From assembly GCA_964035575.1 (NCBI GenBank), contig OZ037843.1:1054001-1118000 (forward strand): a stretch of DNA of 64,000 nt, in the 5' to 3' direction. The notes below the pieces were generated by a model. It had not been told where the DNA came from and ran no database searches. It saw only the letters and a program-made list of their open reading frames with translations. The stretch is from Rhynchopus sp. YZ270_cl-10. Its lineage: Eukaryota. Made by a program: the position numbers and the translations under genes. Position 1 is the first letter of the stretch. Each line of letters begins with the position of its first letter. Positions 1 to 63,417 of this stretch are shown piece after piece.

Positions 1-252
1 CCGTGGTGCGCGCTTTAGAAGTAATTTGTTTGTTTTCATCATTTACCGTCGGGGGCACGGGGTCCTGAGCGGACCCTGCGATGCCCAACTCGCTGAAGGG
101 GAGGTGTCGTCACTCACCTGGGTCCGTCATCATGCCAAGGGTTCTAGTCTTGGCATTCCGGAGCTGCTGCCCCTTGTGTGTGTGTGTGTGTTTGATAACT
201 AGTAGGGGTAATTCTTGCTCAGAATATGGCCCCAAAAAGGGGGGGGGGGTGC

Positions 253-3200
253 TCACGTCACGGCAGACGCCCCCGAAGGGTCGTGACGGTGATGCAGTGG
301 TTGAGTGCCTTCCTGGGCCGCGTGCTTGAATTGCGGGTGGCAGGAGTGGCAGCACTCGTTTAGGCTTTTTCTGTCCAAGTGGCAGGCCCCACAGCGCGTC
401 AATCTGTGGCTCAGGCAGAAGTCCATCACAAGCTCAAGGCCATCATCCTCTCTGTGGTGCAGGTTGCAGCATGTTTCCACTACGGCTCGCACTTTCACAC
501 AGGACACACATCTGACTTTTCCGTGGCTCTCACATGAGATGATCTTGGCGTTCTTGCGGGCCCCCGCGGGGGCTGGTCGCGGGGGTCTGGACCTGAAGGC
601 TGCAGTGTCCACCGCTGCTCTGCCCCGTACCTGGCTGGATGCCTCCGTCCAGTTCGCGGCGTAGTGGTCCTGGGGGTAGAACCGAGCTGCCCATGCTTGG
701 CTCTCCTCATACAGGATGGAGCTAGGGCCATGCGGCTGTTCGCTGCGGATGTTGTGGGTGTTGTGGGCGTTGAGGTGGCGGAGGACGGCCTCTGTCTTGG
801 CGGAAAGCACAGCCCGTCGGTTTACCCCTTGCACCACTGTCCCTCCGAGCGCTGTCAGACTGGTGACACCTCCCTCTTTGCCTCTGGTCCAACTGTCGAC
901 TTGGACCACACTGCGTAGGTCACGGGTGAGGCTCTGCAGTGACAGTGATTTGGCCCATACGCTCTTTTGGAAGAGAGGGTATTCTGTAGCTGCCTGGCTT
1001 AGCTGCTCCGCCCTCGCAACTTCGACCGTATCCATCGCTTCATTGCTGAGAGCGTCAGCGTCAGTGTTGAGGTTCCGCTTGACGTGGCGCCATTCGATGA
1101 CGTAGCGGGGTTGCAGGTTTCGGATTTGGGCCCTGATGCGGTGGAGGAATGGCTGGAGGTTCTCTTTGCATTTTGTGTTCCCCTTGATGTGCTCGATGAT
1201 CAGTTTGGAGTCGCCGTATATGGTCGCCTGGCCACACACTTCTGGGGGTAGGTCGCGAAGAAGGCAAAGGCCACTGCTAGCCCCTTCGTACTCGGCAACG
1301 TTGTTGCTTCTTGCAAATGGCAGGGGCGTAGCTACGGATGCTGCCTTCACCCCGTCGATGTATACAACTGCTCCTGCCCCTGCCCTCGCAAATACCGTAC
1401 CGTTCTGTCTAGCACCACCATCAAAGAACACCTCTGTGCCCCGGCGGCCTTCTATGGTGTTGCGCACAGTGCACACGGTTTGAGACGCACAGTATGGCTG
1501 ATATCTGCGGTTCTTAATACCCGGCAGGGAAAGTCCCGTGGTCAGCTCGAAGTCTATTGCGAGCTCAATGTAGCTAATAGAGTGCTCCGATCCGTTATGC
1601 GCCCATTGCAGACTGTTTACCCAGTGGTTGGTTGCGTACCATAGGTCTTCACTGTGTTTCCATGTGGCCCCCACGTCTTGGTAGCGCAGTGAAGGGAGTT
1701 GCACTCGCATGGGTTGGGGAGAAGACCATCCCCATGGGTAGTCAACCAGGCGGTGGTGGCGGGCCGTCTCTGCTGGGCGGTCATCTCGAATCTGTCTTTG
1801 CCTGACTATTTCTATGAATAGCCTTTGCAGATTACTCACTAGTGCGATCCTCTCGTGGTCGTCTCGCGGGAGAACGTTGTCGTGGCTGTCGTGACGGTAC
1901 CGTGGTGCCACCCCGCAAATGACCAGGCAGTTCGGCCAGTCCGTCCTGTCCGCGGCTGCAACAGGGTGACGGCTGCGTACCTCCTCCCACGCACTGCATT
2001 CCCACCACATATGGCGAACTGTTTCGCGGGCTTCGGTCTCACAGTAAGGGCATCCGTCGGTGATGAGGCCGGATCTACCCGTTGTTGTCATTGCCCCTGC
2101 AATGATGGAGCGAAGGATGCCTTTCTGGTACCCGGTTAGGTTGCTCTTGGGGTCTTCCAGCAGGTGCCTGGTCACTCTGCCGTCAACACCATGTTGGAGT
2201 CCGTCGTAATCGCTCGATCGCTTGTTCGCAAGGGACCTCATTAGGGCATTCCGCAGTTTGTGACGTGCCTCAGCCTCCACTGACGTGGCTTGCTTTTCGG
2301 TGAGGGTGTCAACGTCCAGCAGAGTTTGGTCTCCTGATTCGTTGGTGAATCTGACTCGGTTGGGGGCAACCCAGTCCCACCCCAAGGCGTTCAGTGATTC
2401 ATTGAGGAGGAAGAACGGTCCGTAGGACAGGGAATCTCTGTGCTGCCACGCCACCGCACATAGATGTCTGCAATTTTCTCTTCTCATCTGTTTGATCCAC
2501 GCACGTAACCTGCGAATGTGGAAGACCATCTCCGGGTCCAGTCGGTGGCCGTGCTGTAGGATGTGCATGACCGCCACCACAGCACGTCGCGAAGGCCCGG
2601 TCCAGACAGCTGCTGTGAAGTTTTTCTGAAGTTTTGCCCGTTTCTCCGGGGACAGGTAAGTCACAGACGCGCCATAATAGCACTTTGACCCCGCAGTCAT
2701 TGCCGCTATGTGGTCTCGGTGGTTTACTGGTGTTGGGAGGGACCGCACCCTTCCCAGGTTCTTCACCGCGTTGGAGGACCTGTTGGAGATGCGATTGGAG
2801 ACGGGCAAGGAGCTAAGGTTGGCGCCTGGTTGTGCGTGCTGCATGACCCCTGTGCTGTCGAAGCTGTTCTTGACAGGGAGGAACGTCGGAGGGTTGTGGC
2901 ACATTAGCTCTCCGGTTTGCACGTTGATCACCTTGATTTCACATGGGCGCGTGCGGCACGTGGAGAAGGTGAGCGACTTTGAGACACTGATGTCCATCTG
3001 GGTGAGGTGAGAGAAGATCACTGTTCGGTCAACGGCCATCTGCTGGAGCTGGTGAGATGGGGCAGTGGCGTAGATGTCGTCAACGAATGATGTGGTCTCA
3101 GCCCCCTTGCTGTCGACCTCACGCATCCATACGCTGATAACAATGTTTATTAGGATCACACTCAATGGGCACCCCTGCATGATACCATTGGTTGGCGTGA

Positions 3201-6102
3201 AGGGTTCTCCCACAGACCCGTTGCACCGGAAGTGTCTCTTCATCTTTACATAAGCCTCTCTGAGTACCGATAGCACCACTCCATTGAAGCCCAGTCTCGC
3301 TGCAAGGCACATCGCGATGTTGATGGGGACGGTATCAAAGCATTTCTTGAAGTCTATGGCTACTCCGAAGATGTGTTCACCGGTGAGGTGTGCGCATTCT
3401 AGCTGTGCTGCGAGGTGCCAGTACAAGTCCTCCGTCCCGTGTTTGGGCCTGCACCCGTGCAATCCTGCAGGTGACAACTTGTCCAACCACGGGAAGGCGG
3501 ATTGAGCACGTATCGATGCCCATATCCTATAGAGGACCGCCGTGATGGTGATGGGTCGTTGCGACAGGGGGTCTCCATCACTGTCTGGTTTTGGGATTAG
3601 CGGCACCAGTGCTTGCATGAGGGCTTCAGGCCACACTCCATCCCGTTCGACGGCATTTAGGCATTCCACAAGGATGGTGATGATAGAGTCAGGTAGCTGT
3701 TCCACTTCGTGTGCTCTCCATCCGTGCATGCCTGGTGAGGTGGTACGCTTCATTCGTTTGAGTGCCTTGCGTACATCTTCCACCTTGATGTGTTCACATG
3801 TCATGTCTTCTGCCGCCGGTAGTACATCTTCGTACACTGCGAGGAAGGAGTCCCAACTTGGCTCGGGTGAGGAGGCGTATTTTTGGAATATACCACCCCA
3901 TGCCTGGTTGTCTCTGAGGAGGGAGTCAACCTTGGCTGGGTCAGCCGTGAGAGTGCCATCTTGTTGCTTCATGAACGCTGCCGGCGTTGTGAAGCGGTCA
4001 GCCACATAGTCAAAGATGGTACCTTGACCTTTGCTTCCAACGTTTTGCATGGTGTGCTTCCAATGCAGACTGCGTTGTGCCTTCATGGCGGCAAAGGCTT
4101 CTCTCTGGGAGCCTTCGAGTTTCTCTAGGAGGCGGTGCAGGTAATCCACTCCGGGGTTTGGGACGAAGAGGGCCTCAGTGATCTCGTCCCTCAGCGGGCC
4201 TCCTCGGAGTCGGGACAGCGCCTCCCACGCGTACCTCTCCCTGCGGGTCATTGCGTACGGCTTGTCCACAAGCAGTCTGGCCCTTCCTATTTGGAGAAGC
4301 GTGCGTAGGTTTCCCATGACAGCGTCCCTCGCCCTTGTTAGCTTTGAGGACGCCCCATTTTTGCTGCTGTGCTTTGTGGCGTGCCTGGCCGTCTTCACGA
4401 GGGATGTCTCGCTTCGCCCGCAGTAGTCAGAATGTGGGGACGCTATGTTGTCCTCATGGAGGAGGAGTAGGAACTTCTCACCCACCTCTGCAAACTCAGC
4501 AAGCTTGCTTTCTCCTGATGCCTCGCTCCTGTCCTTTTTCTCCAGCTGGCTAGCAAATGTCACCGCAGTCTCTGGGGTGTTCCTTGGTCTATCCAGTGGG
4601 AAGGGCTTGGGGAGCACGCATCTTCGGGTGCGGCCAGAATATACGTTTAGGTCGAGGGTGAAGGTGAGCGGTACATGTGTCGGGAAAGGGCAGTCGTCGA
4701 AGCTGGAGTCAACTGTCACTTTATAGATCGCTGGTGCTGCCGTCGCATTCGCCAGGCACATGTCAATCCGCGTTCCGCTCGAGTTGGCCGTTCTGCAGGT
4801 GAAAGGTGGAGGGGTTCGCTGGGCAGCGGCTAGGCTCTCCGCCACATCAACCCATCTTCCAGATCTCTGCGCTGCCGCAAGAGTGACGCTATTGGAGGCG
4901 TTGCAGTTGAAGTCCCCGATGATGATGACTGGGACTGCGTGACCCAGACCAGTTGCCATCTCCAGTGCGTCCTTGATGAGTGCTTCTCGTTCGGCCGCCG
5001 CCTCCTGGCCTGCGTGTGCGTAGAGGGAGATGACATGGAAGGCAGCCCCTGCGCCCACCGCAACAGCTGTGTGGACCACCCTCGTTGAATCGTGGCAGCG
5101 TTTTTCCACCGGTGATTTTGGCGCGATGGTTTGCGCTATCAGGCCACTCTTGGTCATTATCGCCACGCCTCCCGGTGCGATTTGCTGGCGCTCGCCTCCT
5201 CCCGTCTTTGTGAGGGCCTTTCCCCAGTGTACCTCCCTTCCTTTTGCGTGGAAGTATTGCCCATGTGTGCCCATGTGTTCCTTCCCGACCCTTGTCTCCT
5301 GTAGGGCAAGGATATCAGCCGGGAGGTCAGCCACGTCACGGTAGTGCGTTTGCAGCGACGTTACGTTGATGGTGGTGATGGTTAGGGGTCTGGGTGCGGG
5401 TGTAGGCGGAGCTCGGGGTTGCCGTCTGTTCCTGTTCGCCGGAGACGGTGCCTCGAGGGGGAGAATGCCGTTCTGACAGGCTCGTAGCCTTCGGAGGAGA
5501 GCCATCGGGATTCTGAGTGAATCGTAGTGCTCAGGTCTGTACGTTAGTCCCAGCACACGGTTCCGTTGGGCAGGGCAGCCCTCACGTCGCAGTGTGCCAC
5601 GACTTCCCGTGCTGGCGTTGAGGACCCATATCTCCGCCTTGAGGACCGTCGCTGCCGCCTGCAAGCAGAGGTGGTCCCCGTAGGTGCCGTCACGGCTCAT
5701 GTGGTCCAGGTACATGCTGAACGAGGTCGTGGCTGCTGCCGGCCCGGCTCCATACAGGTACCTGGACTCTTCGTTTGTGCGCAGGTGGCTGATGACGTCT
5801 CTGCGCAAGGAGGCCGCACATATACTCCCGGTGCATTGTGAGGCGAGCGCCCTAAAGAGGCAGTTGCCGTCCCCAGGGATCACGTGACGGGAGGTGTGCA
5901 AGCTCGCTGCTGTCCGGTCCAGCCACACGTTATTTTCTGCTCTCTCTGCAATAGGGTCATCCCCCCCGCCTCTCATACTTGTACGATGCTTCCCGCACGC
6001 GTGCGCGTATCCAATCTTTGAGTCGATGCTCATCTCTGGAGATGCTGGCGTTGTTACAAGCGGGAGATATACTTTTGGAGGGACTGCTAGGGTCGCCGCC
6101 AT
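253..6102 (-). CDS. LINE ORF2 polyprotein: OTU protease, AP endonuclease, reverse transcriptase, CCHC Zn finger, RNase H, C-terminal Cys/His repeats
   Basis: OTU: IPGDGNCLFRAL...YGDHL...HYDSL. APE: TINVTSL, LQET, GDFN, RIDMCL, PTHVP. RT: QRPIT, IDFKKCFD, GIMQGCPLS, FVDD. Zn finger: CPYC..ETVRHMWWEC. RNase H: FFDGG, NNVAEY, GDSKL, HVKRNLNTDADAL. First ATG is at 6102; the frame is open to 6252. Confidence 0.95.
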   Translation of the reverse strand: MAATLAVPPKVYLPLVTTPASPEMSIDSKIGYAHACGKHRTSMRGGGDDPIAERAENNVWLDRTAASLHTSRHVIPGDGNCLFRALASQCTGSICAASLRRDVISHLRTNEESRYLYGAGPAAATTSFSMYLDHMSRDGTYGDHLCLQAAATVLKAEIWVLNASTGSRGTLRREGCPAQRNRVLGLTYRPEHYDSLRIPMALLRRLRACQNGILPLEAPSPANRNRRQPRAPPTPAPRPLTITTINVTSLQTHYRDVADLPADILALQETRVGKEHMGTHGQYFHAKGREVHWGKALTKTGGGERQQIAPGGVAIMTKSGLIAQTIAPKSPVEKRCHDSTRVVHTAVAVGAGAAFHVISLYAHAGQEAAAEREALIKDALEMATGLGHAVPVIIIGDFNCNASNSVTLAAAQRSGRWVDVAESLAAAQRTPPPFTCRTANSSGTRIDMCLANATAAPAIYKVTVDSSFDDCPFPTHVPLTFTLDLNVYSGRTRRCVLPKPFPLDRPRNTPETAVTFASQLEKKDRSEASGESKLAEFAEVGEKFLLLLHEDNIASPHSDYCGRSETSLVKTARHATKHSSKNGASSKLTRARDAVMGNLRTLLQIGRARLLVDKPYAMTRRERYAWEALSRLRGGPLRDEITEALFVPNPGVDYLHRLLEKLEGSQREAFAAMKAQRSLHWKHTMQNVGSKGQGTIFDYVADRFTTPAAFMKQQDGTLTADPAKVDSLLRDNQAWGGIFQKYASSPEPSWDSFLAVYEDVLPAAEDMTCEHIKVEDVRKALKRMKRTTSPGMHGWRAHEVEQLPDSIITILVECLNAVERDGVWPEALMQALVPLIPKPDSDGDPLSQRPITITAVLYRIWASIRAQSAFPWLDKLSPAGLHGCRPKHGTEDLYWHLAAQLECAHLTGEHIFGVAIDFKKCFDTVPINIAMCLAARLGFNGVVLSVLREAYVKMKRHFRCNGSVGEPFTPTNGIMQGCPLSVILINIVISVWMREVDSKGAETTSFVDDIYATAPSHQLQQMAVDRTVIFSHLTQMDISVSKSLTFSTCRTRPCEIKVINVQTGELMCHNPPTFLPVKNSFDSTGVMQHAQPGANLSSLPVSNRISNRSSNAVKNLGRVRSLPTPVNHRDHIAAMTAGSKCYYGASVTYLSPEKRAKLQKNFTAAVWTGPSRRAVVAVMHILQHGHRLDPEMVFHIRRLRAWIKQMRRENCRHLCAVAWQHRDSLSYGPFFLLNESLNALGWDWVAPNRVRFTNESGDQTLLDVDTLTEKQATSVEAEARHKLRNALMRSLANKRSSDYDGLQHGVDGRVTRHLLEDPKSNLTGYQKGILRSIIAGAMTTTGRSGLITDGCPYCETEARETVRHMWWECSAWEEVRSRHPVAAADRTDWPNCLVICGVAPRYRHDSHDNVLPRDDHERIALVSNLQRLFIEIVRQRQIRDDRPAETARHHRLVDYPWGWSSPQPMRVQLPSLRYQDVGATWKHSEDLWYATNHWVNSLQWAHNGSEHSISYIELAIDFELTTGLSLPGIKNRRYQPYCASQTVCTVRNTIEGRRGTEVFFDGGARQNGTVFARAGAGAVVYIDGVKAASVATPLPFARSNNVAEYEGASSGLCLLRDLPPEVCGQATIYGDSKLIIEHIKGNTKCKENLQPFLHRIRAQIRNLQPRYVIEWRHVKRNLNTDADALSNEAMDTVEVARAEQLSQAATEYPLFQKSVWAKSLSLQSLTRDLRSVVQVDSWTRGKEGGVTSLTALGGTVVQGVNRRAVLSAKTEAVLRHLNAHNTHNIRSEQPHGPSSILYEESQAWAARFYPQDHYAANWTEASSQVRGRAAVDTAAFRSRPPRPAPAGARKNAKIISCESHGKVRCVSCVKVRAVVETCCNLHHREDDGLELVMDFCLSHRLTRCGACHLDRKSLNECCHSCHPQFKHAAQEGTQPLHHRHDPSGASAVT

Positions 6103-6214
6103 GAGAGGTAGGGAGATGAAAGGTTCGTTGGGTACATCAAAAAATGTGTGATGAGTGACGGATGGAGAGGTTGGTGGGGATGGTCGGGAGAAAGGAGGTA
6201 TGTGAATAACAATC

Positions 6215-8203
6215 TCATTGCCGATTCGGGTCCAAGCTGTTCCTAGGCACAAGAGGGAGCTGTCCTTGTTTCGTCTTGGGCTTGGAGTCCCCTTTGGTTC
6301 CGTAGGGCTGGTATGCTGCAGCTGATTTACTGCGCGGTCTGCCCTTCAGTGCGTTCTTGCCCGTCAACGTGAGCTCCTGCTGGCGTGTTTGCTGGATGGT
6401 GTCCGTGGTTGTGGTGGTCCCATCCTGGCTAGTCTCCTGTTTGTGTTGCCGTGTTTGGACCTCAGTCTGGACTGCCATGACCACAGGCTCTGCCTCTTTC
6501 TCCTGTTCTTCCCTCCGGCGTAGCGTAGCCTCCGCCATCTGGTTGGAGAGGAGCTGTGTGGCCTCCTGTTGCTGCGTGATCGCCTGCGCCGCCGCCTCTG
6601 CGTGCTCTTTGGCTTGAACCGACACCATGTTGCTTTGCTGTGCAGCTGATTGGGCGACCGCCGCTGTTCTCTCCACCTCCACTTGCGTCTCCGCCACTTG
6701 TGCAGCAGTTGCCTCCACTTGCGCCCGTGTTTCGGCCGCCACTCTGTCGGCGTGAAGTACAGCGGCGTGGGCGACCCCCGTCACTTTCTCAACCTCTGCC
6801 TGGGTGCCGGCTGCCAGGTTGGCTGCTGTTGCGTCGGTGTGGGCTACGGTCATGGCCCTCAGCTCCTCCGCCATTCGCTGCGTCTGCTGCGATAAGCGTG
6901 TTGCTGTAGCCTCGGCGTGCTTGTCTGCAGTGCTGAGCATGCTCTCAAGATGGGCCTTCATCATTTCCTCCATCCTCGTTGCTGAGGCGTCAGAGTGCTG
7001 ACCTGCCCTGTCCGCCCGCTCTAGCGCCTGGCTTGCCGCACCAGCTGCTGCCTCCGTTTGCTGCTGCAGCTTGTGGACTGCCTCCTTGAGGTGGTGCAGC
7101 TCGTTCTTTTTGATCTGCGACGAGAGGAGCGCCTCGTCGCTGGGTGCCTGGCGTTTCTTTTGCTCCACCTTCGCCATCATCGTCGAGATCATGCTCTCGA
7201 TGCTCTTGCTCAGCCGTTCAGAATCCTGGACGGACTCCACCCGCAGCTGCTGCAAAGCGTTAGTGGTCTGCTGGGTGTGCTGTTCTGCCTTTGCAGATGC
7301 CTCCTCCCTGAGTTGCTGAAGGGTGTTCTGGGTCTGCTGGGCTTGTAGGTCCGCCTTCAATGCGATCTCCTCGCGCATGTGCTGTAAGGAGGTGGCGGTG
7401 GCGGCGGTGGCTTGCGTCACGCACTGCTGCAGCCGTTCCTCACTGACACCGGGAGCAGACGCAGTAGCAGCAGCAGGTGAGGGTGCTGGTGCAGGGTCAG
7501 GGGTGGGTGCTGGCGCTGAAGCATGTGCGGATGTTGGTGCAGACACAGATGCAGATACATGTGCTGGTGTGCTCTCCTCATCCCCGACTGCCCGTAGCAG
7601 CGTCACACGCCGCTCGTTGAGGGCGGTGTCGATCGCCCACCGGTCTGCAGCGGTGAGGGAAATGGCGTCGGTGACGGTGTCGGTGTCGGTGTGGTCGGCT
7701 CTTGCACCCCCACGGCCTTTGCCCCCCCTACCCCCTTTACCCCCTCTTCCCCCTTGCCTGCTGGTCATATCCTTGGTGAGGGAGCGGAATCGCGCCAGCA
7801 TCGCCGTTGCCGCGGCGGCCGCCTCCTTCGCCTTCTTGGTCGCTTCCACCTTGGCGTTCAGAGTCCGCTCCTGCTCGACGTCAACGATCGTCAGCACTCG
7901 GTCGAAGCAGGAGATGGTGTGGTGCGGTGGGGGGTCTGTGGCGTGCACCTCCGCCTCCCCGCTCCTGCGCTTCCCCACCCGCGCCTTCCACTTAAGGCTC
8001 TCCAGGAGGGCCTCCACTTCGTTCAGGTAGGCGGTGGGGGGTAGGTTGGTCACGCGGTATAGCCGCGTTGATCGGACGTTGAGGGTGATGGTGGGGACGG
8101 GGCCATTTGCACCGGTTTTGTTGCACGAACCCACCTGGTCCCGTTGGCCGTCCGGGTGGACGTTACCGGGGGAGCCCGCGTGGAGGTGGGACTGGTGTTG
8201 CAT
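6215..8203 (-). CDS. LINE ORF1 (putative RNA-binding, coiled-coil protein), 662 aa
   Basis: Lies directly upstream of ORF2 on the same strand. Has an RRM-like N-terminal segment (YRVTNLPP..W), an RGG box (GGRGGKGGRGGKGRGG) and a long Ala/Gln/Glu coiled coil. Confidence 0.85.
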   Translation of the reverse strand: MQHQSHLHAGSPGNVHPDGQRDQVGSCNKTGANGPVPTITLNVRSTRLYRVTNLPPTAYLNEVEALLESLKWKARVGKRRSGEAEVHATDPPPHHTISCFDRVLTIVDVEQERTLNAKVEATKKAKEAAAAATAMLARFRSLTKDMTSRQGGRGGKGGRGGKGRGGARADHTDTDTVTDAISLTAADRWAIDTALNERRVTLLRAVGDEESTPAHVSASVSAPTSAHASAPAPTPDPAPAPSPAAATASAPGVSEERLQQCVTQATAATATSLQHMREEIALKADLQAQQTQNTLQQLREEASAKAEQHTQQTTNALQQLRVESVQDSERLSKSIESMISTMMAKVEQKKRQAPSDEALLSSQIKKNELHHLKEAVHKLQQQTEAAAGAASQALERADRAGQHSDASATRMEEMMKAHLESMLSTADKHAEATATRLSQQTQRMAEELRAMTVAHTDATAANLAAGTQAEVEKVTGVAHAAVLHADRVAAETRAQVEATAAQVAETQVEVERTAAVAQSAAQQSNMVSVQAKEHAEAAAQAITQQQEATQLLSNQMAEATLRRREEQEKEAEPVVMAVQTEVQTRQHKQETSQDGTTTTTDTIQQTRQQELTLTGKNALKGRPRSKSAAAYQPYGTKGDSKPKTKQGQLPLVPRNSLDPNRQ

Positions 8204-8725
8204 GGTTCGTGTGTTTTGTTTTTCCCCCTGTGTGTGTGTGTGTGTGTTTTTTTTTGCCCTTCATACCAGGGTATTAGGGTAAAAATCCAAAATTCCGGAA
8301 AAAACTGGTTTTTCTGGTTTTCTCTCCTGGGTGGCGAAAACTAGTGTTTCCGGCGAAAACCTCCACCGTTGACGGACACAGTCACCTTTTTCGGGTTTTT
8401 CGGGGGTGGGGTCAGTGTCTTATCCAGGAATCCAGATTTCAAAATATTTTTCGGCGCTGCTGACCCGGGGTAGACATTGGGAACAGGGCGCGCGCTAACT
8501 TTTCGGAAATTTCCCGAAAAAATGGATATCGGGTCCAAAAAAATGTACCTACAGGAAGTATGTGAAGGGGGGCAGAAAAATCAGGGTCATGTTACATTTC
8601 CGAGAAAATCCCGGGCTGTGGTGGGGGATATACGGAAAAATGGACAAAATTTTGGTGACTTAAATTTTCACAAAATATGAACCCATACTCGTAAACAAGG
8701 GTCATTTTCAGGTCTTTCGGACAGT

Positions 8726-8836
8726 CAGTACACAGTACACAGTACACAGTACACAGTACACAGTACACAGTACACAGTACACAGTACACAGTACACAGTA
8801 CACAGTACACAGTACACAGTACACAGTACACAGTAC
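8726..8836. repeat. (CAGTACA)n microsatellite
   Basis: Perfect 7-bp tandem array. Confidence 0.97.
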
Positions 8837-15604: not shown

Positions 15605-18600
15605 CACGACGTTGAAGTAACTTACTTTACTTGTGGTTTTACATGTAATAATTTTTACTTGTGGTCACAAGTAATTACTTGTGACCACAAGTAACTTTTA
15701 CTTGTGCACAAGTAATTTTTTACTTGTGCACAAGTAACTTTTTACTTGTGCACACGGTGCGCTGGTCAGAGATCTGACCAGGTACCCAGGTACCCAGGTA
15801 CCCAGGTACCCAGGTACCCAGGTACCCAGGTACCCAGGTACCCAGGTACCCAGGTACCCAGGTACCCAGGTACCCAGGTACACGGTACACTGTGTACAAG
15901 GAAAAAAGTCGTGAAAGAGCAACCACAGCTCCACATGACAAACACAAAAGTGTCCAGTCACGTGGGGCATTCATGCACTGAGGAGATAATGTTCCAACAA
16001 TTTACAAGAAAGATTACTTAACCTACTGCTGGAAGTTGCCAGGTCGTAGTAACACACAAAGTGTGCCTCCGTTCGGGAAGACCGGATATTCTAGAGACCA
16101 AAAAGGCCTCAAGAATATCTTCCGGTAGTCAAGGTATAACCGAATGAACGGCCCAAGACCCCCGTGGAGAAGTTAAATGTTGTAATGCTATCAAGTAGAA
16201 ACTGCGACCACTGTCTTACCCTCCTCAATACATGGTGGAAGATGTCTTTGACAACAAATATCCTGTACCCAGGTACCCATATTCCCAGAACCACGCAGTA
16301 CTACGTCGCAGTACTACGCAAAATTTACCACCAGACCCTGTCTTCGTGCACCTGAAGTACAACGCCGCAGACAGGCCAAACATGCGTTGGACTCAGAGGA
16401 ATGCCCGCTGTGCAGGTATCATGAGAACCAACTCCCAGCAACAAGGGGCGCCTTTTGGCGGGCGTTGTTGAGTTGAGGGTGTTTGGGGTGCAAAGTTTTC
16501 CACAATTTTGATGCGCGGGTACAGAAGTGTTGTCTTGTTCTTTCATCTCTAGGAATGTAAATGTCAATCGCGTTTAACTACCACTAGGGCTTGTTCAGTG
16601 AACCCACGAGGGGTCGAAGGGGGTTGGTTATCCCATATCTATCAAAGGTTGTGTCGACCAGGCGAATCCACTATGTTACGCTGTACGTTGTTAAATCCGA
16701 AGAAATAACGCTTTAGCAGCCGCAGGAAGTTTGTTAAAAAGAGTGCCTCACGCTACACCCGCGATTGACTTAGATGTTATAACAAAGAGAATTCAGAACA
16801 AAACAACACCCTGCCCCATACACACTAAATTGTCATGCTTCAAGAGCATGCCTGGGCCAAAATTACTGTGACAAAAAGGCAACAAGACCACCCACAAAGA
16901 GTGTGAAATGTGCACTGGATTTCTGGGGGAACGCAATATTTTCTTGTGCCTCGTCCTCCGCAAGCAGAGGACAGACTTTCCGGAAGGTTTCCAAAGTCGA
17001 ATTTCTTGCACTAGCTATGCTCCCTGGTTAATGGCAATAGCAGTGACGGACAAAATGTTCCCACCCCCCTTCATCCGCAAACTCAGTATTGATGCAGGTG
17101 AACGTGTGTGAGTTGAATGTCGGAGACGGCGAAGGTTCTCATCGCACTCGCAGATGCTGTTCAGATTTCACGATCCTGTGATGAGTGGAAATGTGGGGTG
17201 TAGTTAGGTTATGGTAGCTTGGAAAATACAAGTTAATTCATGACTTCAAGAAAAATGGTTATCGAATTTGAGGATGTAGAAAGACAGGGACGCAAAAAGT
17301 AGTGTAAAACCCCCCATATGTGAAAATTGTATTTTCTGGGGGAGATAAAACCATACCTTGTCTGCACATTCACCATTTGTGCCAGCTCCTCTGAGGGATA
17401 GAAGCTGGTTCTGGATCAACGTGGACTGCTCTTAGGGGAACCGGGGAACCGTTCCCTGGTTCCCGTTCCGAAATGACCGGTTCATTATACTCCAGTTCCG
17501 GGGTATCGGACTGTTGGGGCCCCCTCGCCCGACCCCCAGATGACTGGCATGACAGCACCTTAATTTTTTTCTGCTCGCTGTGCTCGCGGAAGTACACCCC
17601 AAAAAAATTTCCGCTCGCTTCGCGCTAACTTTTGGAAAAAATCTGAAAAATCGTGCTTCGGGCCCAAAAAAACGCACCTCAAATAGGGTTACGTCTGGGG
17701 GTGAAAAAGCAGTGTTTTGTGGCATTTCCGAGCTGTGGTGGGGCATATTCGGAAAAGTGGACAAATTTTAGTGACTTAAATTTTCACATAATATGAACCC
17801 ATACTCCAAAACAAGGGGCATTTTCAGTCTGAAAACCCAAATTCAGATGAAATTGTGGTGTTTTTGACTGGGAACAGGTAGCGCCGCAGGCGCACGGTAC
17901 CCAACCTTTTTCCTTTCCCTTTTCTCTGCTTTCTTTTGATTGCGCGAGCTGATTGCTCTCCACGGTGGGGTCACATGTGTGTGTGAAAACACTCTAAAGT
18001 ACCCGTACTCTGAACTATGAGATTCCTCTGGTTCTAGTAAAGAAACCCCGTCTCAAAAAGTGCGTAAATATCCTTTTCCGCCCAAGAGGTCGTTTTGTTG
18101 CATTTCCGAAGACCCACCCACGAGACCTGTCAAATCTATGTGACATGTTATAAAATAACATCTAATCTCGCATGTCGTATCACCAAAAACCCTAGTAACA
18201 TTATCATCATGTGTGGGATGGTAGGTGTTCACATGACTCGTCACAACTCTTCACAACACAGTCTATGACATCTATTGTTGTGAAAGAGTTGTGAATTGAA
18301 ATGAAAATTTGTGTTCTCCAATACCCCGAACACCACCAGGAAAATTGAGCCTTTTGAGCCTTCTTTCGAGCCTTCTCAAGGGGAAAAAGTTTAATTTTCC
18401 CAGTTTGTAATTTTGTTTTGCCGTACAATTGGAAATGAAGCGTTCCTTGTGCTAGTGATCGAAGAAGACGGTGTAATCTTCTTCACAGGATTTGATCTTC
18501 GAAAATTTCAGAAATCCTTTCCGAGCAATGTCGTAGGTTTCTTATGAGGCGTTCTTCTGAGCACCCTCATAGATATTTGCTGCCTGCTTCTTCGTAGCCC

Positions 18601-25200: not shown

Positions 25201-25604
25201 TTACCTTGGCCCCTTTACCTTACACTCATTTTGACCAAAACCAAGAACTTGGCCATTTCGGCAAATTGACCCCACCACAGCGCGGACAGATCCCGGAAAT
25301 GCCAATCGCGGCATGTTTTGGGGCTGAAAAATTTTCACCTGAAATTTTTTTTCAGCAGCATGTTTTGGCCGAAAATGGGCCCCACGTATTAGTGACCGGG
25401 CTCATATTTTCAAAAATTTAAGTGGTCAAAAAATTGTCCAATTTTCGAGATTGACCCCACCACTTTCTGGACGGATTCCGGAAATGCCAAAAAACTGTGT
25501 TTTGGGTCACGAATTTGCACCCCGTCACCCAAAAACCAGCAAAAAATAGGGGAAAAAAAAACAAAAAATGTCCGCGTTTTGGGGGGGGGGAGGGGGGGGT
25601 CTGA

Positions 25605-26960: not shown

Positions 26961-27302
26961 TGTACGAAGGAAGAGGTACTGCTTCTGTACGTTACTTACC
27001 TACCCACCCCTCCAACACAACATTTTCGACGTTTCTCTGACGCATGAGGATTACATGGTTGTAAGTCCCTATAAGAAGGGCAAACCTGCTGACGTTTTGG
27101 TATGGGCAGAAAGAAGGGCAACATTATGAGTTCCTCTCAGACTCCCCTGTTTTGCCACCGGTGTCAGGCATCAACAGGCCTAACCGCCCAGATGGTTTCA
27201 ACACAAAGCTTCACGACATCGGGCCTTCCGGTGCCATCGATAAGGCCCTCGACACAGACGGGTTAGCATTGCCCCTGCGTTTGACCTATAGCCCGCTTAC
27301 TG

Positions 27303-27997
27303 GTACACTAGTACACTAGTACACTAGTACACTAGTACACTAGTACACTAGTACACTAGTACACTAGTACACTAGTACACTAGTACACTAGTACACTAGT
27401 ACACTAGTACACTAGTACACTAGTACACTAGTACACTAGTACACTAGTACACTAGTACACTAGTACACTAGTACACTAGTACACTAGTACACTAGTACAC
27501 TAGTACACTAGTACACTAGTACACTAGTACACTAGTACACTAGTACACTAGTACACTAGTACACTAGTACACTAGTACACTAGTACACTAGTACACTAGT
27601 ACACTAGTACACTAGTACACTAGTACACTAGTACACTAGTACACTAGTACACTAGTACACTAGTACACTAGTACACTAGTACACTAGTACACTAGTACAC
27701 TAGTACACTAGTACACTAGTACACTAGTACACTAGTACACTAGTACACTAGTACACTAGTACACTAGTACACTAGTACACTAGTACACTAGTACACTAGT
27801 ACACTAGTACACTAGTACACTAGTACACTAGTACACTAGTACACTAGTACACTAGTACACTAGTACACTAGTACACTAGTACACTAGTACACTAGTACAC
27901 TAGTACACTAGTACACTAGTACACTAGTACACTAGTACACTAGTACACTAGTACACTAGTACACTAGTACACTAGTACACTAGTACACTATAGTACA
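27303..27997. repeat. (GTACACTA)n microsatellite
   Basis: Perfect 8-bp array inside E1. Confidence 0.97.
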
Positions 27998-29471: not shown

Positions 29472-31943
29472 TCAGATAATTTCTATTTCGTATTCAGTGT
29501 CATACTCCAATTCCTCTTCTTCCGACTCCTCATCGCTCATCGTGTCTGCATCAAGGGCTTCTCGGTACTTGTTATTCCCACCGAGAAGCCCCAGAATGTC
29601 GCCAGACCTCCTGAGGAACACTCGACGGGCGTACTCTTCGGCCCCCACCGCGCTCTTCCTCTTGTTCTTTGCCGCTTCTGCGGTGGAGAACACTCCGTCC
29701 ACGCTCGTCACGGAGAGCGGTGTCCGCAGCCACGCGACAACCGCTGCAGACAACAGGGGGAACTTCTTCTGTGTTCCCCTCTTGCACCAGTAATCCAGTG
29801 CGCACACCTCATCAGCCAGAGCTGAGGCAGGCTGAGTTCTGTATGCCTCGAACTCCTTCCACACCTCCTCGTTTGACAGCGCGTGCAGATCGACTGTCCA
29901 CAGGCTGCGCTGGCTGTCGAAACAGGGGAAATCGTGGAAATCCCCGATCAACACCGTCTCTGGCTCAAAAATTAGCAGCAGCTCCCACCTGGAGCGTGAC
30001 TTCCACGAATTGTACATATTCTCCATCAGATCCTGTAGCGGCCGGGAGGTAGCTTCGCTCTTCATCATGCGCACGTACTCATCTAGGGTTTCGAGGCTGG
30101 TCTGTGCAGGAGAAGGATTCTGTATTTTGTTGATGACACCCATTGCAGGCTGGAGGAAGTCAGCAAGCAATACGCAGTCATCGACGTTCCTCTGCCAGTG
30201 GCCCTCTTGTATCAGCCGGGCCAGCACCCTGAGTGTCTCCGGTTTTTTCGCTCTGCCCATCTCGGAGTCCAGGAACTCCAAGAGGACGTCCGCCCGGTCC
30301 CGGATGTGGATCACGAGATCCATGGCGGCGCCCCAGCGGGTGTCGGAGGTGGAGGTCGGCTGTGCGGGAGCGACGACCTCAACGTTCTGAGCGTCGACGT
30401 CCACTTCCTCCCGCACGAACTGACGGGCCTTGCCCAGCACCTCCTCATCCGTTTCCGCAGCTGTGAGGCGCAGTAACGACCGCAGTGCTCGCACCTTCTC
30501 CTGCTTCAGCGCTGCCTTCACACGCAACCACGTGTCCTTCGTGCCACTCGCCTGCTCCTGTTCCTTCTGGATTTTCGCCAGTTGGAACAATTTCCATCTG
30601 CGACGCCTGGCCTTGCATCCGAAGAATTGGCTTATGAGCGTCGTAAATGCGTACGCATATTTGAACGCCTCCTTCACAGTGACTTTTAACACCGAATTAA
30701 GATGATGGCCCAGGCACCAAGCAATTTCCTCCGCGGCATCCGTCAGGCCCCTCAGATTTATCGATCCGTAGTCCGCCACTACCGTACTCCGAACAAGTTC
30801 ATAGTATGAGCGAACTTCGTGCAACAGATTCGCGACGTCCATACCCCTGTCCTGTTCACCGTCACAACGAGCTCGAACCATCAGGAGCACTGCTTCACCC
30901 CCCACAAAACCCACCACGGCTAGGAGGGCCATACCGATGTATCGAACCCCCGTGCCGTCTATCCCGAGGGCGACGGTTTTGCCTGACAATTTTTTTTTAA
31001 TGGCCTGCATTGTTTCCTCCGTGAATTGTTTGCTTTTATTGAGCAGTGAGCGCGGCTGCGGAAGCGTGACGAACATCGAGAGCACCAGTGCCAGAATACA
31101 TGCCTGCTGATGGGTTATGCCCGCAATTATGAGGGCAAGGGCCCATGCTCTTTTGAACGCCGTAGGGGAAACAATTGGCGTCAATACGGCTTGAGTCGGT
31201 GTTGGGGTAGGTGCGCTGGTCGTTTTCTGCTGCGCCTTCTCCTCCTTCTTCCCCTTCTTCTCCTCCACCCTCTTCGCGTGTGTCTTGTTCCGACCGTCTA
31301 CGTGGGATTTTACGCTCGTAATTTCTTGGTGCTTTATCATACAGCTACAAAGTGTGCACCAGAGCACCTCGTCGTCCCCCGTCATTCCGTCGGTCAGCAG
31401 CCCCTCTCTCACCTCGAAGGGCACGTCCTTGACCGCCCTGACCTCTATGCCAAACTGCTGGGTTTCTGTCAGTCCCTGGATCCTCGCGTCGGCTGTGATC
31501 TGTGGTTTTTTCCGTCGCGCCTTTTCAGCCTCGGCCTTGACGTCCGCCTTTAACTTGTTCGTGTCATTGGCCTTTTCTGTGGGTGTCAGTCCAGTCTTTG
31601 GGGAAGGTTTTGCTGCCGTCTTCGCAGAACTTTTCGCGCTTGGTTTTCCCGCAGGTTTTGCTGCTGCCTTTCCCGCAGGTTTTGCTGCTGGTTTTTCCGC
31701 AGGTTTTGCTGCAGGTTTTGCTGCAGGTTTTGCTGCTGATTTTTTTGTTGTTTTCTTTCTTGACGCCTTCCTCACGGGCTTCACATCGCTCGACTCGCTC
31801 TCGTCACTCCCGCTGCTACTGGGCTCCCTTTTCCGCTTCGACATTTTTTTTTGGGGGGTTTTTGAATCTGTTTTTATTGATGATGCCGCATTGGGGTGTG
31901 GGAAGGAAGAGGAATTGTTGGAAATTTCACTAGAAATGCACAT
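29472..31943 (-). CDS. hAT-superfamily transposase
   Basis: Zn finger WCTLC...H...H; LGIDGT; VVADYG; CLGHHLN (CxxH); DTRW; hATC dimerisation domain LDYW..FPLLS..LRTPLSVTSVDGVFS..R..VFLR; N-terminal AKPA repeats. The true start may be MSKRKRE. Confidence 0.9.
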   Translation of the reverse strand: MCISSEISNNSSSFPHPNAASSIKTDSKTPQKKMSKRKREPSSSGSDESESSDVKPVRKASRKKTTKKSAAKPAAKPAAKPAEKPAAKPAGKAAAKPAGKPSAKSSAKTAAKPSPKTGLTPTEKANDTNKLKADVKAEAEKARRKKPQITADARIQGLTETQQFGIEVRAVKDVPFEVREGLLTDGMTGDDEVLWCTLCSCMIKHQEITSVKSHVDGRNKTHAKRVEEKKGKKEEKAQQKTTSAPTPTPTQAVLTPIVSPTAFKRAWALALIIAGITHQQACILALVLSMFVTLPQPRSLLNKSKQFTEETMQAIKKKLSGKTVALGIDGTGVRYIGMALLAVVGFVGGEAVLLMVRARCDGEQDRGMDVANLLHEVRSYYELVRSTVVADYGSINLRGLTDAAEEIAWCLGHHLNSVLKVTVKEAFKYAYAFTTLISQFFGCKARRRRWKLFQLAKIQKEQEQASGTKDTWLRVKAALKQEKVRALRSLLRLTAAETDEEVLGKARQFVREEVDVDAQNVEVVAPAQPTSTSDTRWGAAMDLVIHIRDRADVLLEFLDSEMGRAKKPETLRVLARLIQEGHWQRNVDDCVLLADFLQPAMGVINKIQNPSPAQTSLETLDEYVRMMKSEATSRPLQDLMENMYNSWKSRSRWELLLIFEPETVLIGDFHDFPCFDSQRSLWTVDLHALSNEEVWKEFEAYRTQPASALADEVCALDYWCKRGTQKKFPLLSAAVVAWLRTPLSVTSVDGVFSTAEAAKNKRKSAVGAEEYARRVFLRRSGDILGLLGGNNKYREALDADTMSDEESEEEELEYDTEYEIEII

Positions 31944-33956: not shown

Positions 33957-34310
33957 TACACAGTACACACAGTACACACAGTACACACAGTATACACAGT
34001 ATACACAGTATATACAGTATACACAGTATACACAGTATACACAGTATACACAGTATACACAGTATACACAGTATACACAGTATACACAGTATACACAGTA
34101 TACACAGTATACACAGTATACACAGTATACACAGTATACACAGTATACACAGTATACACAGTATACACAGTATACACAGTATACACAGTATACACAGTAC
34201 ACACAGTATACACAGTATACACAGTATACACAGTATACACAGTATACACAGTATACACAGTATACACAGTATACACAGTATACACAGTATACACAGTATA
34301 CACAGTATAC
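33957..34310. repeat. (CAGTATACA)n microsatellite
   Basis: 9-bp array with some CAGTACACA variants. Confidence 0.97.
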
Positions 34311-34713
34311 CATAGCTGATAAGCTAATAAAGCCTAATAGGATATTAGCCTATTTAAGCCTTATAGAATAGGCTAATGAAACTGGAATAGGCTAATATTT
34401 TATTAGCCTATTCCAGTCCTTCCCAGCTACCACTGGTGGTACGGTGGTAGCTGGCTTAACCCGTTAAACAAATCCGAAAAATCCAAAATTTAAGGCCAAC
34501 TCCGTTACAGACACAACACAACTTATTTCTCTTGTGTTTTTCACTGATGAGCGTGAGTGAGGTGTATGTTACAGCACCGACTGCAGCCTACGTCTAAGAT
34601 GGCATATAATAGGCTATTAGCCCAATATTAGCCTATTATAAGACATACTGTGGGTGTTATAACGTTATCGATAACGTTATAACAAGTGTTATTTTGGAAT
34701 AACGTTATTCAGC

Positions 34714-35313
34714 AGTACAGTACAGTACAGTACAGTACAGTACAGTACAGTACAGTACAGTACAGTACAGTACAGTACAGTACAGTACAGTACAGTACAG
34801 TACAGTACAGTACAGTACAGTACAGTACAGTACAGTACAGTACAGTACAGTACAGTACAGTACAGTACAGTACAGTACAGTACAGTACAGTACAGTACAG
34901 TACAGTACAGTACAGTACAGTACAGTACAGTACAGTACAGTACAGTACAGTACAGTACAGTACAGTACAGTACAGTACAGTACAGTACAGTACAGTACAG
35001 TACAGTACAGTACAGTACAGTACAGTACAGTACAGTACAGTACAGTACAGTACAGTACAGTACAGTACAGTACAGTACAGTACAGTACAGTACAGTACAG
35101 TACAGTACAGTACAGTACAGTACAGTACAGTACAGTACAGTACAGTACAGTACAGTACAGTACAGTACAGTACAGTACAGTACAGTACAGTACAGTACAG
35201 TACAGTACAGTACAGTACAGTACAGTACAGTACAGTACAGTACAGTACAGTACAGTACAGTACAGTACAGTACAGTACAGTACAGTACAGTACAGTACAG
35301 TACAGTACAGTAC
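34714..35313. repeat. (CAGTA)n microsatellite
   Basis: Perfect 5-bp array of ~600 bp. Confidence 0.97.
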
Positions 35314-46718: not shown

Positions 46719-47620
46719 AGTGATATCTGTACTCGTGACGTGAAGGGTGGAATGCGAGGGGAGGACACAAAAGGGAGGGAAGGATTTTTTTTTTTTTTTG
46801 TGGCGGGAAGCAGGTTTGGTAAGCGTCCGAAAGTGTCCAAGCGTCCCCACTCTTGCATTGGGGTTTGGGGTGCATCCCTTAACGTACTTTCCCCCAAACA
46901 TGGTGGGTTACACCCCCCAGGAGGTGGCAGGATGACATGTGGGGGTCCTTGGAGGCCAACGACGTGTACTTACAACTTTAACTTGAAAAAAAATATGAAA
47001 AAATACGCAAAAAACGCAGCAAAATCGGGCTAAAATAGGGCCTCGGAGCCCAAAAAACCCAAAAAAATGTCATATTTTCGACTGATAAAGCCCCAAAAAC
47101 ACATATAAACACCCTGATAACCCCAGAAAAATCATTTTGGGTGTGTTTTGGACACTTTAGATGACGCTACAGCACTTTGGGTGGTCATGCAACACATGCG
47201 GGGTATTTGAGGGAAAAGTGCGTTTTGCAACCGTTACGCAACCGTTACGCGATGCAAGAGTGGATTTTGGGGCGCATCCCTCGACGTACTTTCCCCCAAA
47301 CATGGTGGGTTACACCCCCCATGAAGTGGCAGGATGACATGCGGGGGTCCTTGGAGGCCACAGACATGTACTTACAACTTTAAATTGGATTTTTTTTTGA
47401 AAAAAAACGGGAACCTCTTTTTCAGGCTTCCACCTTTTGACGTCAGGCCAGTGTCCTAAATGATGCTGCCACACCCTGAGGGGGAGGTGTGCTGTCTGTA
47501 AACTCTGTGTGGCAACAACGGGGAGGTGACCTCCGTATATCGGCAACCCGCACGTCCTAGATGTGAAAAACGGCACCAGCCGGGACACGGTCCCGGGTTT
47601 ACTCCGGATAGAACAAAAAA

Positions 47621-62866: not shown

Positions 62867-62991
62867 TAACACTGTCCCAACGGGGAAGAGAAGGGGAAAG
62901 GGGGTCGATATCAGCAAGGTGTCGGAGGTCTACACTATATAACCAACAACGGCGTTACCTTGGGCGCAACCATGTGTGTGTGTGTGTGTTT

Positions 62992-63091
62992 GATAGAGAA
63001 ATAGGGTTATACCATCTATTCAGTAGAATAGTTAGTATATGAAACAATTGATAGAGAAATAGGGGTAATTCTTGCGCAGAATATGGCCCAT
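62992..63091 (-). mobile_element. 5'-truncated 3' end related to the LINE at 194-8223
   Basis: Shares tttgata...taggggtaattcttgcKcagaatatggccc with 191-232; flanked by catgtgtRtgtgtgtg(tg)tt direct repeats (62971-62990, 63092-63109). Confidence 0.78.
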
Positions 63092-63417
63092 CATGTGTAT
63101 GTGTGTGTTCATGTGCAAATGAAGGTCAGATCAGGATCATGAGTGGAGCAGGATGGATAAAGGACAGCTTTCGCGTGAGGGAGAGGAGGGGAGGCTGGCC
63201 TGGAGGGGGGGGGAAAATAAAGTAGCGGAGCATACTCTAGGGTGGCTGCACTAATACAAACAAAAAGTTTTCAAAAAAAAAAAAAAAAAAATGTGGTGTA
63301 CTGTGCTGTGTTGGGGTGTTGTGTTGTATGGGCAGGGGATGGACTGTGAGGATTTCTCAGAGCTATCTTTTGTTTGTGCTTTTTTGTTATTTTTTTTTTA
63401 TTTTTTTTAAATACCTG

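What the first reader, a model, noticed from the sequence alone, without database searches (positions are those of the whole stretch)
170..8249. LINE family appears to target (TG)nTTT / AAA(CA)n microsatellites
Seen: the full element is bounded by CCCCY(TG)8-9TTT direct repeats. An independent truncated 3' end at 62992-63091 is also bounded by (TG)nTT direct repeats, with the same 3' junction (tgtgtttgata). There is no poly(A) tail. Known: (AC)n-specific LINEs exist in insects (Waldo, Mino; R1 clade). Inference: this is an independent origin of microsatellite targeting in a protist APE-LINE.
Basis: partly seen in the sequence, partly recalled or inferred. Interest (0 to 1): 0.75.

Follow-up and report, generated by a model that had tools for sequence, protein, structure and literature searches.

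The report
Diplonemid LINE targeting CA-rich microsatellites
A young, intact LINE retrotransposon of a diplonemid (marine protist) sits between two copies of a CA repeat, and many cut-short copies elsewhere also border CA-rich tracts on their 5' side, so the family likely inserts by preference into such microsatellites, a habit probably gained independently of the animal elements known for it.

Summary
Observation essentially real. A two-ORF LINE (minus strand, 194-8230; ORF2 = OTU protease, APE, RT, CCHC, archaeal-type RNase H) lies between direct repeats whose perfect core is 19 nt, (TG)8TTT; there is no poly(A). The second site (62992-63091) is composite: a ~45-nt 3' terminus between (TG)n repeats, with an unrelated 38-nt repeat nested in it. 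The 'tail only' rival fails. In contigs of four public runs, 14/18/16/2 contigs carry the 3' motif followed by (TG)n on its 5' side with diverse flanks. Three of three gene calls that read from flank into 5'-truncated copies have His/Thr-rich (CA-type) flanks (null 61 of 86,310), against 0 of 2 in sister LINE families. A Diplonema papillatum relative (~44% identity) also ends in (CA)n ~60 nt after its stop. The target looks looser than (CA)8: an AAAC core plus an A/C-rich tract. No empty allele was seen, and independence from R1/Tx1 rests on architecture, not on a tree with named references. Microsatellite targeting is known (Waldo, Mino, Kibi, Koshi, Dong, Togen); this is a new variant in a protist APE lineage.

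The parts
175..193 (+). 3'-side copy of the target-site repeat, (TG)8TTT (sense strand AAA(CA)8)
   Evidence: sequence; 19-nt perfect match to 8231-8249
194..252 (-). 59-nt 3' UTR without poly(A); holds the 28-nt family motif (205-232), which can fold as a small stem-loop
   Evidence: fold not beyond shuffles, z -0.78
253..6102 (-). ORF2, intact, 1949 aa from the first Met
   Evidence: 98% identical to a cluster of 24 sequences
5527..5877 (-). OTU-like cysteine protease domain, Cys and His motifs present
   Evidence: Pfam PF02338 E 2e-9; motifs
4630..5400 (-). APE-type endonuclease domain
   Evidence: PF03372 E 1e-12; model pLDDT 95; Z 24.0, rmsd 2.4, 215 aligned to L1 endonuclease, tied with ExoIII homologues
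2965..3597 (-). reverse transcriptase core (FVDD)
   Evidence: PF00078 E 1e-18; best PDB match human L1 ORF2p
1996..2052 (-). CCHC zinc-finger motif after the RT
   Evidence: motif scan
1036..1437 (-). RNase H of the archaeal type (Arg in place of His)
   Evidence: PF13456 E 3e-6; PDB hits Rv2228c and RNases HI; motif
6215..8203 (-). ORF1, 662 aa, rich in Ala/Gln/Glu, no CCHC knuckle, no family found
8204..8230 (-). very short 5' leader (about 25 nt) starting with a G-run; true 5' end uncertain
   Evidence: sequence; shared contig reaches about 8222 (table 8)
8231..8249 (+). 5'-side copy of the target-site repeat, (TG)8TTT, inside (TG)9T9
62971..62991 (+). 3'-side repeat of the short insertion, CA(TG)8TTT
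   Evidence: bridged by contigs in X1 and X4
62992..63009 (-). duplicated piece of the LINE terminus (one arm of the 20-nt repeat around the nested element)
   Evidence: 19/20 to 63048-63067
63010..63047 (.). separate 38-nt high-copy repeat nested in the short insertion
   Evidence: second copy 58322-58359; highest summed depth
63048..63091 (-). ~45-nt LINE 3' terminus (5'-truncated copy or very short non-autonomous form)
   Evidence: 29/30 to 203-232
63092..63109 (+). 5'-side repeat of the short insertion, CA TGTGTA (TG)4 TT

Best explanation
This is an intact, multicopy diplonemid LINE whose copies border CA-rich tracts at both ends, and it likely inserts by target-primed reverse transcription into sites of the form AAA(CA)n, duplicating about 19 bases of the target. 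Shown: the architecture, the 19-nt repeat, no poly(A), and CA-type sequence at the 5' junctions of many truncated copies. Inferred: the APE domain nicks the (TG)nTTT strand at the T-run, an L1-like T-rich site; the RNA 3' end, probably extended by read-through into AAACA(CA)n, pairs with the freed TG/T-rich primer; reverse transcription starts at the fixed TATC junction; a second nick about 19 nt away makes the duplication; frequent abortion just past the 3' stem-loop leaves ~45-nt copies. Specificity is moderate: an AAAC core plus an A/C-rich tract, with (CA)n the commonest form seen. I put about 55% on RNA-primer pairing being the main determinant and 45% on the endonuclease alone.
For: Window: 4 of 4 element ends fall on TG arrays, all in one orientation, against 1 other (TG)>=4TT site in 64 kb; at the short copy two non-repeat bases (CA) beyond the array match on both sides. 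Contigs: at place 235, just 5' of the 3' motif, 14/18/16/2 contigs (X1/X3/X4/X6) run on into (TG)7-9 with agreement 0.54-0.56 in the first three, so flanks differ (24 of 311 loose-end rows shown); 5 of the 8 pieces shown for X1 are other contigs near single-copy depth (75-119 against 70-72) laid across motif plus TG run; 8 distinct junction variants lie at 63090-63094, as expected of separate truncations; 34/35/36/5 contigs share TGTGTTTGATAACT at the 3' end with diverse flanks. Proteins: of 30 listed members (of 41) of this family and its 61% sister, 3 have an unaligned N-terminus read from flank into a copy truncated deep in ORF2 (residues 271, 709, ~950); 3 of 3 are His/Thr-rich with A/C-only codons, against 61 of 86,310 stop-free background 8-mers. 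Controls: 0 of 2 junctions of LINE families lacking OTU/RNase H. D. papillatum P0042 reads through a frameshift (11 of 11 residues compatible, 0 of 20,000 random) into HTHTHTTH about 61 nt after the stop, against 59 nt here. The endonuclease hairpin loop, which affects specificity in L1 (PMC1950540, abstract and headings), differs in length and sequence among these families, which fits a role for RNA pairing.
Against: No empty allele was seen; the tool skipped the repeats themselves and dropped rows there, so the 5' flanks of other full-length copies are unseen and no share of copies can be given. The 3'-flank consensus of 34-36 contigs is clean only for about TGTGTTT and merely G/T-rich beyond, though contigs with long TG runs break there, which biases this sample. 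Of the three peptide flanks only one fits (CA)n (2 mismatches of 21); one fits (CACAA)n (1 of 21) and one fits no tested unit better than 4 of 21. The peptide score was set after seeing the data. The two control junctions share one host gene family, so they are not independent. A D. papillatum junction (P0061, family outside the well-supported clade) is not CA-rich. The C-runs of the full element are out of register and the short copy's repeats are imperfect. Nicking, RNA 3' end and pairing are untested.
Confidence: 0.8

Rival explanations
1. The (CA)n is a 3' tail made by template slippage, so the element creates microsatellites rather than targeting them; the 5' repeats are chance or part of the 5' UTR.
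For: RTE elements of moths have short 3' UTRs ending in simple repeats and seed microsatellites (PMC2887409, abstract). The 3' end is CA-linked in both species. The full element's C-runs are out of register.
Against: CA-type sequence at 5' junctions of copies truncated at very different points: ~45 nt from the end and at ORF2 residues 271, 709 and ~950. Neither 5' repeat in the window is preceded by the element's TATC end.
Confidence: 0.07
2. The very short copies are a SINE-like family with a built-in (CA)n head; only the tail is shared with the LINE, and targeting is weak.
For: Many copies end within a few bases of one point just past the stem-loop, and the short copy's terminal bases differ from the full element.
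Against: 8 different junction variants. It does not explain the full element's 19-nt repeat or the three deep truncations. A short non-autonomous form could exist alongside targeting.
Confidence: 0.08
3. Insertion is random and copies survive mainly in CA-rich, repeat-dense DNA (passive accumulation, as suggested for Drosophila Waldo-A and -B).
For: PMC3812793 (passage) gives this reading for Waldo-A and -B. Both flanks of the full element are themselves multicopy.
Against: It does not predict arrays exactly at the junction, a fixed TTT/GATA joint, or one strand polarity. The short copy lies in single-copy DNA.
Confidence: 0.05

Closest known systems
Waldo (ACAY) and Mino (AC) elements, R1 clade, insects
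   Same: APE-type LINEs that insert into AC-type microsatellites (PMC3812793, passage).
   Different: Here ORF1 has no CCHC knuckle; ORF2 has an N-terminal OTU domain and an archaeal-type RNase H; the endonuclease scores PF03372 (48.6 bits) over PF14529 (20.1 bits); the host is a diplonemid. The R1 features are from my own knowledge.
Togen (fish; near NeSL/HERO)
   Same: (TG)n microsatellite-specific (PMC4640811, passage).
   Different: Togen lies among restriction-like-endonuclease elements; this one has an APE domain upstream of the RT.
Kibi (TC) and Koshi (TTC), Tx1 clade; L1 group in general
   Same: APE-type and microsatellite-specific (PMC3812793; the Tx1 placement is recalled). The nearest solved RT is human L1 ORF2p (130 bits against 76 for R2), and some relatives show weak zf-RVT.
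   Different: Different repeat; no poly(A); OTU and RNase H domains; RT identity to named Tx1 or L1 families not tested by tree.
SART1Bm (telomeric repeats, R1 clade)
   Same: A model for repeat-targeted TPRT: it needs at least three repeat units, and the RNA 3' tail sets the start of reverse transcription (PMC7265360, abstract).
   Different: Targets (TTAGG)n and has a poly(A) tail.
Ingi / L1Tc of trypanosomatids
   Same: Euglenozoan APE-RT-RNase H LINEs with short non-autonomous partners (PMC12278014, passages).
   Different: Ingi has the 77-nt 5' signature and a poly(A) tail; here there is a separate 662-aa ORF1, a ~25-nt leader, OTU and no poly(A).
ORTE (OTU-bearing RTE-group LINEs of mosquito; name and features recalled, not found)
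   Same: OTU protease upstream of APE-RT. OTU also occurs in Ginger1 and Helitron proteins (PMC2836005, passages).
   Different: Two ORFs and RNase H here; RT relationship not tested.

Membership tests
APE-type non-LTR retrotransposon (LINE) | ORF2 with APE endonuclease followed by RT, catalytic motifs intact | tested here: met
APE-type non-LTR retrotransposon (LINE) | multicopy, 5'-truncated copies, target-site duplication, no LTRs | tested here: met
   24-member cluster; truncated members; 19-nt repeat; no long terminal repeat in self-BLAST
Microsatellite-targeting LINE (functional class) | same repeat at both 5' and 3' junctions of independent copies | tested here: met
   share of all copies not measurable
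Microsatellite-targeting LINE (functional class) | repeat present in the empty (pre-insertion) allele | tested here: inconclusive
   no skipping joint listed; rows at the repeats were dropped by the tool
Microsatellite-targeting LINE (functional class) | sequence-specific nicking or integration shown by assay | not testable with these tools
   needs an endonuclease or retrotransposition assay
R1 clade (Waldo, Mino) | gag-like ORF1 with CCHC zinc knuckles (recalled) | tested here: not met
   3 Cys in 662 aa, no knuckle pattern; no Pfam hit
R1 clade (Waldo, Mino) | RT groups with R1 references in a tree | not testable with these tools
   no named R1 sequence was returned; the tree holds relatives only
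R1 clade (Waldo, Mino) | endonuclease closest to TRAS1/R1Bm endonuclease | tested here: inconclusive
   listed rows are L1 endonuclease and cellular ExoIII/APE-type enzymes, tied; a family not listed is not excluded
Togen / NeSL / HERO / R4 (Dong) | restriction-like endonuclease instead of APE | tested here: not met
   APE domain with intact motifs upstream of RT
Tx1 / L1 group | RT groups with L1 or Tx1 references | tested here: inconclusive
   nearest solved RT is L1 ORF2p, but the PDB holds few clades; no tree with references
Ingi clade | 77-nt 5' signature and poly(A) tail | tested here: not met
   leader about 25 nt and no poly(A); no Rfam match at gathering score
Proto1 / Ambal / ORTE | RT placement with the Repbase reference families | not testable with these tools

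The most novel reading that the evidence does not exclude
A diplonemid LINE lineage outside Tx1 and R1, with OTU-APE-RT-RNase H, evolved target specificity on its own. One branch has kept AAA(CA)n targeting across species (about 44% protein identity) despite a freely varying endonuclease loop, being guided by its RNA tail, while a sister branch targets one fixed site in a multicopy ubiquitin-like gene family. That would be a further origin and radiation of site-specific APE retrotransposons, in Discoba.
Probability: 0.3. Interest if true: 0.7.

Novelty: new variant of a known kind. Interest (0 to 1): 0.52.

Why it matters
Kojima and Jurka (PMC4640811, Introduction read) state that most target-specific non-LTR families fall into three groups: early-branching RLE elements, Tx1 and R1. 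The microsatellite-specific families named in the two papers read are all from animals. A young, intact APE element with target preference in a diplonemid would add an origin in another supergroup. It offers a natural test of whether specificity lies in the endonuclease or in RNA-primer pairing, because related families share the target type but not the endonuclease loop. It also explains why long (CA)n arrays in this window sit mostly at element ends (3 of 4 arrays of 8 or more units).

Tried and rejected
No whole genome is held for the window, so the genome-wide flank table could not be made. The 28-nt motif found nothing in metagenome, genome or viral contigs. Protein-guided locus scans gave nothing in viral or genome contigs and 7 distant loci (27-48% identity) in metagenomes; 0 of 7 hold a (CA)>=4 run, but most do not clearly reach an element end, so they are uninformative. 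No RNA holder was listed, so expression and the RNA 3' end are open. ORF1 gave no hit in Pfam, protein search or Atlas. TRAS1 and R1Bm endonucleases were not among listed PDB matches; this excludes nothing. The 3' stem-loop and the left flank do not fold beyond shuffles (z -0.78, -1.48, +0.42). Rfam gave no match at gathering score and only one E 3.6 hit in 1-400, so a ribozyme or snoRNA reading of the left flank has no support. Rejected: that CCCC must be part of the duplication (out of register in a young copy); that 62992-63091 is one truncated copy. Earlier scan notes held nothing. Literature: nine searches listed no paper on target sites of diplonemid LINEs. The D. papillatum genome paper mentions LINE ORFs, has no occurrence of 'microsatellite' in its main text and says a rigorous TE analysis is still due (passages). 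Seven supplement files were searched; I cannot tell whether its repeat section was among them. Repbase Reports and most subscription papers, including Kojima and Fujiwara 2003, are not held.
Full report
Question. No genome is held for the window, so I used the window, contigs of public runs, and protein collections.

Anatomy. The element runs on the minus strand. ORF1 (8203-6215, 662 aa) has no family and no CCHC knuckle. ORF2 (6102-253, 1949 aa) is intact and holds OTU (E 2e-9), APE (PF03372, E 1e-12), RT (E 1e-18), a CCHC motif and RNase H (PF13456, E 3e-6), with all catalytic motifs scanned present and Arg in place of His in the RNase H, a mark of the archaeal type (PMC4640811, passage). 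A model of the endonuclease (pLDDT 95) matches L1 endonuclease (Z 24.0, rmsd 2.4, 215 aligned) about as well as ExoIII homologues. The 3' UTR is 59 nt and ends ...TATC, followed by AAA(CA)8; there is no poly(A).

Host and family. ORF2 is 98% identical to an unnamed cluster of 24 sequences, 61% to a second of 17, and 44-47% to D. papillatum proteins; more distant relatives are named from Rhynchopus and Lacrimia. In an RT tree of 137 sequences (those covering at least 230 of 300 residues; FastTree, midpoint root, no named outgroup) the window, its sister family, D. papillatum P0003, P0004 and P0005 and four unnamed proteins form a clade with support 1.00; most full-length members carry OTU and RNase H and end in ..AVT. 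Single-contig depth against unique flanks (70-72 in X1) gives rough ratios of about 36 at the ORF2 3' end, 19 at its 5' end and 3-4 over ORF1; the tool warns that depth is no copy number. The ORF1 contigs match the window with no differences, so this subfamily is young.

Check of the two sites. The perfect repeat around the full element is 19 nt, (TG)8TTT, at 175-193 and 8231-8249; the C-runs beyond are one base out of register. In so young a copy I read the right C-run as the element's own 5' G-run and the left one as the start of a neighbouring multicopy sequence (1-166 has high depth); this is inference. The second site is composite: about 45 nt of LINE terminus (63048-63091) with a separate 38-nt high-copy repeat nested in it between 20-nt direct repeats (19/20); that repeat recurs at 58322. 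The outer repeats are CA(TG)8TT(T) and CA TGTGTA (TG)4 TT: one substitution, one unit short, but sharing two non-repeat bases. Contigs in X1 and X4 bridge the left junction and the inside of this insertion, so it is not an assembly error, although one of the runs may be the source. Of 5 (TG)>=4TT sites on the + strand, 4 are at these ends; none lies in the other orientation.

Test of the tail rival, DNA. Laid on 1-8700, contigs leave the element at place 235, just 5' of the 3' motif, into (TG)7-9 followed by unlike sequence: 14, 18, 16 and 2 contigs in X1, X3, X4 and X6, agreement 0.54-0.56 in the first three (24 of 311 rows shown). Laid on 62880-63240, 5 of the 8 pieces shown for X1 (32 of 3,290 shown in all) are other contigs near single-copy depth that cover motif and TG run together; 10 indel rows at 63090-63094 amount to 8 distinct junction variants; 15/17/17/6 contigs leave at 63089 as a mixture of LINE body and TG; and 34/35/36/5 contigs share TGTGTTTGATAACT on the 3' side with diverse flanks (24 of 132 rows shown). 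Against a strict reading, that 3' consensus is clean for only about two TG units. Contigs with long TG runs break at the shared word, so this sample leans to short or old tracts. Both calls skipped the repeats, so flanks of other full-length copies and empty alleles were not visible.

Test of the tail rival, proteins. Gene calls sometimes read from flank into a 5'-truncated copy. Of 30 listed members (of 41) of the two close families, 3 have such an N-terminus: P0018 (junction at ORF2 residue 271, flank ending HPHTPTH), P0028 (residue 709, HNTTQHK) and P0038 (about 950, TPHHHTH). All three have 7 of the last 8 residues from A/C-only codons, with at least 4 His/Thr; 61 of 86,310 stop-free 8-mers of the rest of the window pass, and none of 3,921 in the two ORF2s. 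The score was set after seeing the data. Best-fit repeats differ: (CA)n with 2 mismatches of 21, (CACAA)n with 1 of 21, and no tested unit better than 4 of 21 for the third. Two junctions in LINE families without OTU or RNase H do not pass, nor does D. papillatum P0061, whose family lies outside the supported clade. D. papillatum P0042 shifts frame 11 residues before the family's stop (11 of 11 compatible; 0 of 20,000 random) and reaches HTHTHTTH about 61 nt after it, so the CA-type 3' junction is shared at about 44% protein identity; its 5' side is not seen.

Mechanism. The data fit target-primed reverse transcription into AAA(CA)n-type sites with a duplication of about 19 nt. The T-run beside the TG array is where the first nick would fall, as in L1 (own knowledge). 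The endonuclease hairpin loop, which affects target choice in L1 (PMC1950540, abstract and headings), differs among the CA-linked families, and that abstract says factors beyond nicking shape integration. I therefore lean (55%) to pairing between a read-through AAACA(CA)n RNA end and the TG/T primer as the main filter; SART1Bm shows that the RNA tail can set the start of reverse transcription (PMC7265360, abstract). The stem-loop in the 3' UTR is plausible but not beyond shuffles. None of these steps was tested.

Comparison with what is known. Microsatellite-specific LINEs are listed as Waldo (ACAY), Mino (AC), Kibi (TC), Koshi (TTC) and Dong (TAA) (PMC3812793, passages), and Togen for (TG)n in fish (PMC4640811). 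Most target-specific families fall into RLE, Tx1 and R1 groups (same paper, Introduction). The element works like Mino or Togen but fails an R1 feature (ORF1 knuckles, recalled) and the RLE feature; its nearest solved RT is L1 ORF2p (130 against 76 bits for R2). Placement in Tx1, L1, Proto1 or another clade could not be tested, as no named references were available. Nine paper searches listed nothing on target sites of diplonemid LINEs; the D. papillatum paper defers TE analysis (passages; 7 supplement files searched, its repeat section possibly not among them); Repbase Reports are not held.

Verdict. A real feature: preference for CA-rich tracts, about 0.8; independent origin, about 0.75 but untested by tree. 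New variant of a known kind.

Noticed in passing
proteins P0239 and P0078 (not in the window): 5'-truncated copies of two other LINE families (no OTU or RNase H) both join host sequence two residues after LTKT, at the end of a weak ubiquitin-like domain (Pfam E 0.02-0.06), in two paralogues 57% identical. This hints at a sister lineage that targets one site in a multicopy protein-coding gene family; n = 2, protein level only.
   Followed up: partly
window 63010-63047 and 58322-58359: A 38-40-nt repeat of very high copy number; 81 contigs of X1 leave it into T/pyrimidine-rich sequence. At 58322 it precedes a pyrimidine tract and AG upstream of an ORF; at 63010 it has a 20-nt flanking duplication, like a tiny retroposon. 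Its reverse strand holds TACTAAC. No Rfam match.
   Followed up: partly
window 6100-8222: Depth drops about five-fold from ORF2 to ORF1 while ORF1 contigs are identical to the window: most ORF2 copies seem to carry a different 5' part, which suggests subfamilies with swapped ORF1.
   Followed up: no
window 1-174: The left flank is multicopy, begins with AGGGG right after the (CA)n on the minus strand and has an ATG open to the window edge; it may be the 5' end of another element in tandem. No Rfam match, fold not beyond shuffles.
   Followed up: partly
window 57068-57086: (TG)5 followed by a T-run, like an unoccupied target site, just after an ORF.
   Followed up: no
window 8250-8730, 17621-17827, 25398-25463: The right flank is a very high-depth dispersed repeat with 75% copies elsewhere in the window, followed by a (CAGTACA)16 array.
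   Followed up: no
window 8726-41256: Many tandem arrays built on a GTAC core with periods 5, 7, 8 and 9 (e.g. 27299-27990, 34713-35313, 33957-34310).
   Followed up: no
window 29472-31943 (-) and 45318-46901 (-): Long ORFs (823 and 527 aa) without a Pfam hit; the first reads by eye like a DDE (hAT-like) transposase, untested.
   Followed up: partly
window 38404-40341 and 48347-50059 (+): Two paralogous membrane-protein ORFs with a C-terminal part that reads by eye like a nucleotide cyclase domain; no Pfam hit at E 0.01.
   Followed up: partly
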